Source: Promethearchaeota archaeon (GTDB lineage: Archaea > Asgardarchaeota > Lokiarchaeia > Sigyniarchaeales > SOKP01). From it: 64,000 nucleotides of DNA. The stretch's first letter is position 1. Each line of letters begins with the position of its first letter. This document shows positions 1 to 55,593 of this stretch, one piece after another. The notes under the pieces are model-generated. The model was not told the origin of the DNA. It was given only the letters and a program-made list of their open reading frames with translations, and searched no databases. The stretch spans positions 1 to 64,000 of the forward strand of contig JAEOTZ010000016.1 of NCBI GenBank assembly GCA_016839585.1. The letters run 5' to 3'. Made by a program: the position numbers and the translations under genes.

Positions 1-145
1 AGTTGAAATATCAACTTTACAAGCACCTCTCGATTTATTCCTTTTAAAGTTAATCCTTCATTATGAAAAAATTTAATTACTAGTCTTTATTATTTCATTT
101 ACTTATAACCATATAGGAAGGTATTTTTTAATAAAATAACCGTAC

Positions 146-153
146 TTATAAAA
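146..153 (+). promoter_or_regulatory. candidate TATA box for the 5S precursor
   Basis: TTATAAAA about 20-25 nt upstream of the precursor's closing stem (170-178/363-371). Confidence 0.45.
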
Positions 154-204
154 TGGTTAGTATACTTTAATACCACATAATCAGCTGCTAGCTAAGCGCC
201 GGAA

Positions 205-355
205 GTTAAACTCGTTTACGTTGTCCAATAGTACTGCTGTTCTTATCAGTGGGAAATGGCAAATTGTGAGTTCGCTCACGGTCATGATACTCGAGGAAAA
301 TACCCGGTCCCATCCGAAAAACCAACTGTTTTCGAGGTGGTTCGGGAACCCGGAA
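205..355 (+). rRNA. rrf: 5S rRNA, circularly permuted and intron-containing (3' half 205-270, UUCG linker 271-274, 5' half 275-318, intron 319-348, micro-exon 349-355)
   Basis: Order 275-318 + 349-355 + 205-270 gives a 117-nt 5S with helix I (263-270/275-282), conserved ACCCGGTCCCATCCGAACCCGGAAGTTAA, loop E AGTA/GAA, helix IV CTGCTG/CAGTGG and helix V; two BHB-like motifs sit at the junctions. Confidence 0.9.
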
Positions 356-482
356 ACGTTCCATGTGGTATGCGGTATACCAATGTATGTATTAAAAGGA
401 TAGATTTCGTTAATTTGTTGATTTCCTCAAAAATGAATCTATCATAGATCATAGAAAATATAATACATAGTACATAGTATAT

Positions 483-509
483 GAAAGAGATAAGATATCT
501 CTTTCTTTT
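483..509 (+). terminator. hairpin plus T-run, candidate terminator of the 5S precursor
   Basis: GAAAGAGATA-aga-TATCTCTTTC perfect 10-bp stem followed by TTTT. Confidence 0.45.
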
Positions 510-576
510 ACTTATCTAAAAATAATTTTTTTAAATCATTTATTATATCAATATATATTGTAGAATTATTCTTTAT

Positions 577-1134
577 TTGATAATATTCATGCCAAAAAAA
601 TACATAGTTATTTTTAAGACAATTGGGAGACACTGGTTTTGGATTCTTGTATTAATAATTATCATTTTATCTATATATAGACAATATATAGCTGCTATAG
701 TATTAAGTGTGATTTTTCTTGTTTTTTTTCTTTTATCGTATATTCCAGCTTTATTTTTCAAAAATAGATTAAAAAGACTCATGAAAAAGTATTATAGAAT
801 TGAAGATACTATAGTTGCTAAAAAGTTAAAGAAAAAAATTAATAAAATCAGAGAGGAGATGTTTGATATGTCGCAAAAACAGGAGAAGAAAAATTGGCTA
901 ATCACTTTTCTAAATAAGCAGTATATATATTATCATGAACAGACAATAACTAAATTTATGGAACTTTACAATAAAGGTTTTAGTGAAAAAGAAATCTTTG
1001 AAGGATTACAAGATTTTGAACTAAAAACGAGGGTAGAAGTTAAAAGTATTACAGAGAGTCTGATAAAACTTAACAAACTTAGTGAAAGAGATGTTTCAGT
1101 GAAAGAACATAAAAAAAAACAGAGATTTGCTTAA
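577..1134 (+). CDS. hypothetical membrane protein (2 N-terminal TM helices)
   Basis: 185 aa ORF, hydrophobic N-terminus, basic soluble C-domain. Confidence 0.75.
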   Translation: MIIFMPKKYIVIFKTIGRHWFWILVLIIIILSIYRQYIAAIVLSVIFLVFFLLSYIPALFFKNRLKRLMKKYYRIEDTIVAKKLKKKINKIREEMFDMSQKQEKKNWLITFLNKQYIYYHEQTITKFMELYNKGFSEKEIFEGLQDFELKTRVEVKSITESLIKLNKLSERDVSVKEHKKKQRFA

Positions 1135-55490: not shown

Positions 55491-55593
55491 GGGAGGGTAG
55501 TCTAGCCTGGTATGATTCTTGGTTTGGGACCAAGTAAACGAGCCAATATGACCGTTTTGGTAAGGGTCGGGGGTTCAACTCCCCCCTCTCCCA
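55491..55593 (+). tRNA. trnP: tRNA-Pro(UGG) with a 29-nt intron at position 43/44 (55535-55563)
   Basis: acceptor GGGAGGG/CTCTCCC, anticodon arm CTTGG-TTTGGGA-CCAAG, T arm GGGGG-TTCAACT-CCCCC; splicing leaves GGGTC variable loop; CCA not encoded. Confidence 0.92.

What the first reader, a model, noticed from the sequence alone, without database searches (positions are those of the whole stretch)
313..355. 30-nt BHB intron in 5S loop C creating a 7-nt micro-exon
Seen: a second BHB-like motif with central helix TCCG(313-316)/CGGG(343-346), bulges AA^A(317-319) and AA^C(347-349), and intron helix AACCA(320-324)/TGGTT(338-342). Excising 319-348 gives TCCCATCCGAA|CCCGG, the canonical loop C. Only CCCGGAA (349-355) lies between this 3' splice site and the permutation site, so the mature RNA needs two splicing events around a 7-nt exon. 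Established: archaeal introns are known in tRNA, 16S/23S rRNA and cbf5 mRNA; I know of none in 5S. Both junctions independently restoring consensus is unlikely to be chance.
Basis: partly seen in the sequence, partly recalled or inferred. Interest (0 to 1): 0.9.

Follow-up and report, generated by a model that had tools for sequence, protein, structure and literature searches.

The report
Spliced mini-intron in permuted 5S rRNA
The only 5S ribosomal RNA gene of this Lokiarchaeia-type Asgard archaeon is encoded back-to-front and also carries a 30-base tRNA-style intron in loop C. Environmental RNA holds the predicted product, with the intron gone and a 7-base exon kept between the two joints; no intron has been reported in a 5S rRNA before.

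Summary
Window 313-349 forms the described motif: a 4-bp helix (313-316/343-346), 3-nt stretches at 317-319 and 347-349, and a 5-bp inner stem (320-324/338-342).

- **Borders.** Close relatives with the same permuted gene lack exactly these 30 bases.
- **Conservation.** A homologous 30-nt insert sits at the same site in 12 genomes of 4 genera. The 4-bp helix never varies and the inner stem covaries.
- **RNA.** One contig from each of two unrelated sediment metatranscriptomes matches the window at 119 of 120 bases. Both read 318 joined to 349-355 joined to 205, with the intron absent, the micro-exon present and the sequence continuous through the loop that closes helix I.
- **Only gene.** This is the only 5S gene found in a 99%-complete genome.
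- **Enzymes.** The genome encodes two EndA paralogues and RtcB.

Caveats:
- The motif is relaxed: the 3' site has no adjoining outer helix.
- The exact cut positions are inferred from motif geometry. The sequence alone allows a micro-exon of 1 to 7 nt.
- The RNA and DNA samples are unmatched.
- Contigs cannot prove a circle.

I found no paper on an archaeal 5S intron or permuted 5S gene. Unpublished notes of this scan record the same intron on other Asgard DNA.

The parts
138..159 (+). Conserved upstream box with a TATA-like core, the likely promoter of the 5S precursor
   Evidence: Nearly the same box precedes the locus in the genus relatives. A promoter role is inferred.
170..178 (+). Leader strand of the outer processing stem; pairs with 363-371
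   Evidence: 9 complementary bases in the window. The matching pair of strands is conserved in relatives, with a compensating 1-nt length change.
195..205 (+). Leader half of the end-joining motif: inner helix strand 195-198, central helix strand 199-202 (CCGG), 3-nt stretch 203-205, inferred cut 204|205
   Evidence: Read from the sequence. The central helix covaries in relatives: CTGG in the leader pairs with CCAG in the trailer in G048/G063, and with TCAG in genus g13.
205..318 (+). Exon 1 (114 nt): the 3' part of 5S (helix II 3' strand, helices V and IV), helix I closed by a tetraloop, then the 5' part up to the first half of loop C
   Evidence: Model R1 scores 103 bits here. 93% of cells pair and 12 pairs covary. 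Covered by RNA contigs of X14 and X15 with one mismatch each.
263..282 (+). Helix I (263-270/275-282) closed by the TTCG loop at 271-274, where a normal 5S has its two ends
   Evidence: 8 bp, 100% paired, 2 covarying pairs. The RNA contigs run through it without a break.
313..316 (+). Exon strand (TCCG) of the intron motif's central 4-bp helix; pairs with 343-346
   Evidence: Invariant pairing in 10 distinct sequences from 4 genera.
317..319 (+). 5' splice-site bulge (AAA), a true 3-nt bulge; inferred cut 318|319
   Evidence: 342 and 343 are adjacent on the opposite strand. The border agrees with intron-less relatives, give or take the repeated AA.
319..348 (+). 30-nt intron in loop C
   Evidence: Absent from 6 genus relatives with the same permutation type. 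Present and homologous in 12 genomes. Absent from the RNA contigs. Present in DNA contigs of X6 at 100% identity.
320..342 (+). Intron hairpin: inner helix 320-324/338-342 with its loop
   Evidence: 86% of cells pair across 10 sequences and 3 pairs change on both sides.
343..349 (+). Intron strand of the central helix (CGGG, 343-346) and the 3' splice-site stretch (AAC, 347-349); inferred cut 348|349
   Evidence: CGGG is invariant in all 10 introns while the rest of the intron diverges to 15-22 of 30 identical.
349..355 (+). 7-nt micro-exon (CCCGGAA): one base left from the intron's 3' stretch, the 4-nt central-helix strand of the end-joining motif (in mature 5S the 3' strand of helix III), and two bases of that motif's bulge
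   Evidence: The RNA contigs read exactly these 7 letters between 318 and 205. Sequence alone allows 1-7 nt because 350-355 repeats 199-204.
354..371 (+). Trailer half of the end-joining motif: bulge 354-356 (inferred cut 355|356), inner helix strand 357-360, outer stem strand 363-371
   Evidence: Complementary to 195-198 and 170-178. A fold with both motifs enforced reaches -48.5 kcal/mol.

Best explanation

Proposed mechanism: the precursor is transcribed from about 170 to beyond 371. Leader and trailer pair into a processing stem that presents one BHB-like motif (central helix 199-202/350-353). The insert folds into a second one (central helix 313-316/343-346). The tRNA-splicing endonuclease cuts at 318|319, 348|349, 355|356 and 204|205. 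RtcB ligase then joins 318 to 349 and 355 to 205.

The product is a 121-nt RNA (205-318 plus 349-355). Loop C and helix III are rebuilt across a 7-nt micro-exon, and the normal 5S ends are sealed by a tetraloop, so the product is most likely a closed ring.

Shown: the gene structure, the borders, conservation of the motif, both joints in RNA, and the presence of the enzymes' genes. Inferred: the exact cut positions, which enzymes act, the order of events, and circularity.
For: - **Only 5S gene.** RF00001 finds no 5S in the 99%-complete genome. Model R1 of the permuted core finds one locus, this one.
- **Borders from comparison.** The six genus relatives G010, G012, G017, G018, G022 and G024, with the same permutation type, read loop C without the 30 bases.
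- **Conservation.** A 30-nt insert lies at the same site in 12 genomes: genus g1 (5), g12 (4 of 4), g14 (1), g16 (2). Across 10 distinct sequences the central helix pairs 100% and never varies, and the inner stem pairs 86% with 3 compensatory pairs. Sliding the partners by one column drops overall pairing from 92% to 53-57%.
- **Chance.** 45 of 200,000 intron shuffles give the motif at these borders.
- **RNA.** Metatranscriptome contigs X14 (137 nt) and X15 (147 nt), from different studies, lie on 199-318 with one mismatch each. Their overhangs read the end of exon 1, then C, then run into 199, which is identical to 350. X15 also reads CCCGGAAGTT after 318. So 318 joins 349-355, which joins 205, and there are no intron or flank letters.
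- **DNA keeps the insert.** Contigs at 100% identity keep it: X6 record 10 spans 295-358. The three closest genomes (G000, G105, G070) all carry it.
- **The joints rebuild a real 5S.** The rebuilt RNA aligns over its full length with normal 5S genes of the sister family, 72-80 identical positions. The 29-nt string across both joints occurs unbroken in normal 5S genes elsewhere, one of them scoring 86 bits against RF00001.
- **Enzymes.** There are two EndA paralogues of 201 and 200 aa, 31% identical. The first is closest to PDB tRNA-splicing endonuclease chains 3p1z_B, 3ajv_B and 2zyz_B; from memory these are catalytic subunits of crenarchaeal two-subunit enzymes. RtcB is present.
- **Same kind of intron elsewhere in the gene.** Clean 30-nt BHB introns occur at other 5S sites in relatives: loop D in G002 with a 6-bp outer helix, and helix IV in G050.
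Against: - The motif is not the strict form. The 3' cut site has no adjoining outer helix, so it depends on an endonuclease that accepts relaxed substrates. That is plausible for a two-subunit enzyme but untested.
- The motif fold is not the minimum-energy fold. For 302-361 it scores -14.7 against -19.8 kcal/mol. With both motifs enforced the precursor scores -48.5 against -60.5.
- The RNA runs and DNA runs come from different studies, so an intron-less allele in the RNA samples cannot be formally excluded.
- The DNA contig of X1 stops exactly at 318, which could mean a branch in the assembly graph at that point.
- Read laying listed no formal joint. I read the joints from overhangs of 10-17 letters, below the tool's 31-letter rule for bridging.
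- The repeats (AA, and 199-204 = 350-355) leave the exact cut sites undetermined by sequence.
Confidence: 0.88

Rival explanations
1. The 30 bases are a retained expansion segment at the tip of loop C in this species. The intron-less RNA contigs then come from a near-identical strain whose gene lacks the insert.
For: RNA and DNA runs are from different studies. One DNA contig (X1 record 1) ends exactly at 318, which could reflect presence/absence variation. Relatives without the insert exist.
Against: Every DNA source at 99% identity or more carries the insert: G000, G105, G070 and the X6 contigs. The nearest intron-less genome found is only about 82% identical. An expansion segment would not need its CGGG complement to the exon, or the 3-nt spacing, kept unchanged across four genera while the rest drifts. 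Both RNA contigs lack it. By established knowledge, loop C is a conserved protein-contact and RNA-contact surface.
Confidence: 0.05
2. The insert is removed, but not as described. Either the cuts fall elsewhere within the repeated letters (a micro-exon of 1-6 nt), or another nuclease and ligase do the work instead of EndA and RtcB.
For: AA at 317-318 repeats at 347-348, and 199-204 repeats at 350-355, so the product is the same for three intron registers and seven joint registers. The 3' site is not a canonical bulge.
Against: Only the register 318|319, 348|349 puts both cuts after the second base of a 3-nt stretch that follows a 4-bp helix, which is the known EndA geometry. The same geometry fits the end-joining motif and the loop D and helix IV introns of relatives. 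A register joining 349 to 199 would need helix 344-347/193-196, which does not pair.
Confidence: 0.06
3. The locus is a decaying 5S pseudogene, or the motif is a chance look-alike, and the working 5S lies elsewhere in the unassembled 1% of the genome.
For: RF00001 does not score the locus at all. rRNA genes are often missing from MAGs.
Against: The same permuted locus is present once per genome in 60 of 71 family genomes, with covarying helices. Normal 5S is missing family-wide: 5 of 41, all weak except one hit (80.8 bits, G076) on a different contig that is likely contamination. RNA of the rebuilt form exists. The shuffle test gives 2 in 10,000.
Confidence: 0.01

Closest known systems
Archaeal BHB introns in 16S/23S rRNA genes (for example Thermoproteales, PMC4496867) and in the Cbf5 pre-mRNA (PMC2738675)
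   Same: An insert in a non-tRNA gene with splice sites set by a 4-bp helix flanked by 3-nt stretches. Distribution among relatives is patchy, with precise loss. The cell's tRNA-splicing endonuclease and ligase are presumed to remove it.
   Different: The host RNA is 5S, for which I found no report. The intron is only 30 nt and has no ORF. It lies 7 nt from a second motif that joins the ends of a permuted gene.
Non-canonical tRNA introns with relaxed BHB motifs, cut by two-subunit or broad-specificity EndA (Aeropyrum pernix, PMC3241643; ARMAN three-unit enzyme, PMC3239211)
   Same: One canonical bulge plus a second site that lacks the outer helix. Intron length is about 20-40 nt. The genome has two EndA paralogues, and many of its tRNA genes carry inserts of about 30 nt.
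   Different: The substrate is not a tRNA. Whether this Asgard enzyme is a heterotetramer, and what it accepts, has not been tested.
Permuted, circularised SRP RNA of Thermoproteus tenax (Plagens et al. 2015, PMC4731332) and permuted tRNA genes (PMC3218864, PMC3978253)
   Same: A gene encoded back-to-front. Leader and trailer form a BHB motif. EndA-type cutting and ligation restore the functional loop, and the product is circular or passes through a circle.
   Different: These are the model for the end-joining site, not for the intron. None of them combines permutation with an internal intron separated from the end joint by a 7-nt exon.
Permuted mitochondrial 5S rRNA of brown algae (Valach et al. 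2014, PMC4267664)
   Same: A 5S rRNA whose helix I is replaced by a closed hairpin.
   Different: There the mature RNA itself is permuted and linear, with no splicing, no BHB motif and no intron.

Membership tests
Archaeal BHB (splicing-endonuclease) intron | Central 4-bp helix with the two cut sites in 3-nt stretches at its opposite ends, each cut after the second base | tested here: met
   313-316/343-346 pair. The stretches 317-319 and 347-349 place the cuts at 318|319 and 348|349, which are the comparative borders.
Archaeal BHB (splicing-endonuclease) intron | Strict form: both 3-nt stretches are true bulges flanked by an inner and an outer helix | tested here: not met
   The 5' bulge is canonical, with inner helix 320-324/338-342. 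The 3' stretch has no adjoining outer helix, because 312/350 do not pair. It is therefore the relaxed form.
Archaeal BHB (splicing-endonuclease) intron | Removal restores the functional RNA, and intron-less homologues have the same junction | tested here: met
   Six genus relatives lack exactly these 30 nt. The junction string equals that of normal 5S genes.
Archaeal BHB (splicing-endonuclease) intron | The intron is absent from the mature RNA in vivo | tested here: met
   Two metatranscriptome contigs, each 119 of 120 identical to the window, lack it and carry the joint. Caveats: the DNA is unmatched and the overhangs are short.
Archaeal BHB (splicing-endonuclease) intron | Endonuclease and RtcB-type ligase encoded in the genome | tested here: met
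   Two genes with PF01974 and PF02778 and one RtcB at 561 bits.
Archaeal BHB (splicing-endonuclease) intron | Cleavage by EndA leaving 2',3'-cyclic phosphate and 5'-OH ends; the excised intron is circularised | not testable with these tools
   This needs an enzyme assay or end-specific small-RNA sequencing. A 30-nt circle is shorter than the 31-letter words of the contig index.
5S rRNA (Rfam RF00001) | Scores above the family threshold as encoded | tested here: not met
   No hit even at E = 10 in window 1-700 or in the genome. This is expected for a permuted, interrupted gene.
5S rRNA (Rfam RF00001) | Helices I, II, IV and V and the loop C / helix III sequence present after rearrangement | tested here: met
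   28 pairs, 93% paired, 12 covarying. Full-length alignment to normal 5S. Running the rebuilt sequence through the Rfam model was not possible with these tools.
Permuted RNA gene matured through a BHB end joint | Leader and trailer form the motif, and the joined form exists as RNA | tested here: met
   Helices 199-202/350-353 and 195-198/357-360, plus the outer stem. The joint 355 to 205 is in both RNA contigs.
Permuted RNA gene matured through a BHB end joint | The mature product is a covalently closed circle | tested here: inconclusive
   The X15 contig wraps past its own start and runs through the helix I loop. Contigs cannot tell a ring from a mixture of forms.

The most novel reading that the evidence does not exclude
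The ribosomes of this whole Lokiarchaeia family carry a covalently closed 121-nt 5S ring. In intron-bearing species it is stitched from two exons, one only 7 nt long, by four endonuclease cuts and two ligations. End-joining sites and introns are the same kind of element and interconvert: the family shows two permutation points 16 nt apart and 30-nt introns at three or more sites. On this reading the 5S gene is a naturally scrambled gene maintained by the tRNA-splicing machinery.
Probability: 0.45. Interest if true: 0.9.

Novelty: new variant of a known kind. Interest (0 to 1): 0.8.

Why it matters
- **New substrate.** 5S rRNA has been the one rRNA thought to be free of introns and, in archaea, free of circularisation-type processing (stated for example in PMC12918454). 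Here the tRNA-splicing machinery appears essential for making the cell's only 5S.
- **Missing genes explained.** Standard tools report no 5S gene in these Asgard genomes, because the gene is permuted and interrupted.
- **A stringent natural substrate.** Two motifs sit back to back around a 7-nt exon. This can be used to study how splicing endonucleases recognise relaxed motifs and how the ligase avoids skipping the micro-exon.
- **Intron origins.** The lineage lies close to the root of eukaryotes, and introns, permutation points and their loss can be followed species by species.

Tried and rejected
- **Rfam.** At E up to 10 on window 1-700 it gave only noise, and RF00001 on the genome gave nothing.
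- **Exact junction search.** The G000-specific spliced junction (36 nt) had no match in JGI metagenome contigs. The general 29-nt junction matched only long DNA contigs carrying the string; the one I checked holds a normal 5S gene. This is useful as a consensus check but is not RNA evidence.
- **Intron mobility.** No second copy of any 5S intron turned up in the genome beyond chance 12-14-mers. Introns at different 5S sites share only 4-15 of 30 letters, so transposition between sites is not supported.
- **My strict motif scanner.** It is unselective in AT-rich flanks and found few tRNA introns, so I used it only at borders fixed by comparison.
- **Minimum-energy folding.** It does not recover the motif. 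It pairs exon 310-320 with intron 329-340 instead. That pairing recurs in genera g1 and g16 but not in g12, and I treat it as incidental.
- **Helix I loop insert.** The 30-31-nt insert in genus g16 could not be fitted to a clean motif.
- **Read laying.** It called no formal joints. Stretches without RNA cover (flanks, intron) are not used as evidence by themselves.
- **Literature.** Four searches gave no paper on an archaeal 5S intron or permuted 5S. Low-level 5S circles in Sulfolobus and Halobacterium (PMC3326292) are a different thing: normal gene order, and not validated by RT-PCR.

Full report
**What is at the site.** Window 196-371 is a GC-rich island (42-50% GC against about 20% in the flanks) with no ORF longer than 63 codons. 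It reads as a 5S rRNA in rotated order. The segment 205-262 carries the helix II 3' strand and helices V and IV. Helix I (263-270/275-282) is closed by a TTCG loop.

**It is a 5S gene, and the only one.**
- RF00001 finds nothing in the window at E up to 10, and nothing in the 99.2%-complete genome.
- A covariance model of the permuted core (R1, built on 17 genus sequences) has 28 pairs, 93% of cells paired and 12 pairs with compensatory changes. Pairing falls to 32-47% when partners are slid by one column.
- R1 finds one locus in G000 and one per genome in 60 of 71 genomes of the family, in 12 of 13 genera.
- RF00001 finds normal 5S genes in 12 of 14 genomes of the sister family but only 5 of 41 here, all weak apart from one 80.8-bit hit on a separate G076 contig, probably contamination.
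- Relatives are Promethearchaeota/Promethearchaeia (Lokiarchaeia-type Asgard) MAGs.
- The rebuilt RNA (275-318, 349-355, 205-270) aligns over its full length with normal 5S genes of the sister family, 72-80 identical positions of about 117.

**The borders of the insert are fixed by comparison.** Six genus relatives with the same permutation type (G010, G012, G017, G018, G022, G024) read loop C without the 30 bases. The removed block is 319-348, or the same block shifted by one or two within the AA repeat. The 29-nt string that results across both joints occurs unbroken in 5S genes of unrelated archaea in metagenomes, one of which scores 86 bits against RF00001.

**The motif is conserved and not due to chance.**
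- A 30-nt insert at exactly this site occurs in 12 genomes: five in genus g1 (G000, G001, G070, G076, G105), all four sampled in g12, G059 in g14, and G088 and G098 in g16.
- The inserts are homologous (15-22 of 30 identical) but diverged.
- Across 10 distinct sequences the central helix pairs in every case. Its intron strand, CGGG, is invariant although it is not part of the mature RNA.
- The inner stem pairs in 86% of cells, with three pairs changed on both sides.
- Overall pairing is 92%, against 53-57% when partners are slid by one column.
- Shuffling the intron letters gives the motif at these borders in 45 of 200,000 trials.

**The motif is the relaxed kind.** The 5' site (317-319) is a true bulge between two stacked helices. 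The 3' site (347-349) is followed directly by 350-353. That segment pairs with the leader (199-202) in the precursor, or with 304-307 (helix III) in the mature RNA. No outer helix adjoins it. The fold is also not the minimum-energy one (-14.7 against -19.8 kcal/mol locally; -48.5 against -60.5 for the precursor with both motifs enforced).

**The micro-exon has the minimum possible length for two adjoining motifs.** C349 is the third base of the intron's 3' stretch. 350-353 is the central-helix strand of the end-joining motif. A354-A355 are the first two bases of that motif's bulge. The end-joining motif has its own inner helix (195-198/357-360) and a 9-bp outer stem (170-178/363-371). In relatives its central helix covaries: a CTGG leader pairs with a CCAG or TCAG trailer.

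**RNA evidence.** Two sediment metatranscriptomes from different studies each hold about half of the sampled words of 185-390. Laid on window 120-450, each gives one contig.
- X14 (137 nt) and X15 (147 nt) both lie on 199-318, with one mismatch each (245 A>G in X14; 242 C>A in X15).
- The overhang before 199 is the end of exon 1 followed by one C.
- X15 also reads CCCGGAAGTT after 318.
- Because 199-204 equals 350-355, this reads as 318 joined to 349-355 joined to 205.
- The extra C cannot come from the leader, which has G at 198, so a direct 318-to-199 joint is excluded.
- Neither contig holds intron or flank letters. Both run through the helix I loop, and X15 overlaps itself, as a 121-nt ring would.

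**DNA evidence.** DNA contigs at 100% identity keep the insert: X6 record 10 covers 295-358 and record 8 covers 121-321. The RNA contigs are closer to the window than to its nearest relatives G105 and G070, which differ at 242-244 and 287 and also carry the insert.

**Limits of the RNA evidence.**
- The tool listed no formal joint, because the overhangs are only 10-17 letters.
- RNA and DNA come from different studies.
- One DNA contig (X1 record 1) ends exactly at 318, which I cannot explain.
- Contigs cannot prove circularity.

**Machinery.** The genome has two EndA paralogues (201 and 200 aa, 31% identical), both with the N-terminal and catalytic-type domains. The first is closest in the PDB to tRNA-splicing endonuclease chains 3p1z_B, 3ajv_B and 2zyz_B, which from memory are catalytic subunits of crenarchaeal two-subunit enzymes. 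The second is more divergent, and in the pairwise alignment it has no histidine where the first has one. That fits a two-subunit enzyme, the type known to accept relaxed motifs (PMC3241643, PMC3239211). The assembly state is inferred. RtcB is present. The genome is rich in introns: only 24 tRNA genes are found by RF00005, and about half of them carry inserts of about 30 nt.

**Context in relatives.**
- The family has two permutation points. Type A breaks after the helix III 3' strand, as here. Type B breaks 16 nt earlier, after the helix III 5' strand, and moves those 16 nt to the front of the gene.
- Other 30-nt introns with clean motifs occur in loop D (six distinct sequences; in G002 with a 6-bp outer helix, and a compensatory change in the central helix between G002 and G019). 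One more occurs in helix IV of G050.
- This makes a splicing origin for the loop C insert the economical reading.

**Comparison with what is known.** BHB introns are known in tRNA, in 16S/23S rRNA (PMC4496867) and in Cbf5 mRNA (PMC2738675). Permuted genes matured through a BHB joint are known for tRNAs (PMC3218864, PMC3978253) and for Thermoproteus SRP RNA (PMC4731332). Permuted 5S is known only as a linear mitochondrial form (PMC4267664). Four searches of the paper library found no archaeal 5S intron or permuted 5S. Unpublished notes of this scan describe the same permuted gene in many Asgard genomes, and the same loop C intron on another genome.

**Verdict.** I put about 0.88 on a spliced BHB-type intron with a 7-nt micro-exon. 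It is a new variant of a known kind.

Noticed in passing
L009-L019, L021-L024 (genus g1), L050, L056, L061 (g14), L121 (g18), compared with window 199-356: There is a second permutation type. The break lies after the helix III 5' strand instead of its 3' strand, and the 16 nt of loop C plus the helix III 3' strand have moved from the end of the gene to its start. Both types use a CCGG-type central helix, so the two near-identical strands of helix III may let the end joint jump between them.
   Followed up: partly
L006, L021-L024, L060 (loop D); L127 (helix IV, G050): Further 30-nt introns with clean BHB motifs occur at two other 5S sites in relatives. Examples: G002 has central helix TTAC/GTGA, a 7-bp inner stem and a 6-bp outer helix; G050 has central helix CTGC/GCAG and a 5-bp inner stem.
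   Followed up: partly
L119, L120, L122, L123 (genus g16), in the loop that closes helix I: A 30-31-nt insert forming a GC-rich hairpin sits in the helix I capping loop, where a normal 5S has its ends. I could not fit it to a clean BHB motif. It may be a relaxed intron, a stem extension, or a site where the ring is opened.
   Followed up: partly
whole genome G000; window 55491-55593: Only 24 tRNA genes (RF00005) or 18 (ARAGORN) are found in a 99%-complete genome, and about half have inserts of about 30 nt. The tRNA in the window has a 32-nt insert in the variable-loop region rather than at 37/38. Many tRNA genes are probably hidden by multiple introns, non-canonical introns, splitting or permutation.
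   Followed up: partly
window 318, run X1 record 1: A 612-nt DNA contig from the likely source sample ends exactly at the proposed 5' splice site. This may be a branch in the assembly graph. Whether it reflects an intron-less allele in the population is unknown.
   Followed up: no
G076:C68:17163-17272 (L030): One genus member that has the permuted, intron-bearing 5S also has a very strong normal 5S hit (80.8 bits, above any in the order) on another contig. This is probably contamination: the genome is rated at 5% contamination.
   Followed up: no
window 138-159 and the same place in relatives: A conserved box with a TATA-like core lies about 10-30 nt upstream of the processing stem in the genus relatives. 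It is probably the promoter, so the transcript would begin about where the stem begins.
   Followed up: no
window 310-320 with 329-340: The exon bases just upstream of the splice site can pair with the 3' half of the intron, giving the minimum-energy fold. The same complementarity (CCATCC with GGATGG) is seen in g16 introns but not in g12. It might compete with the splicing fold or reflect how the intron arose.
   Followed up: partly
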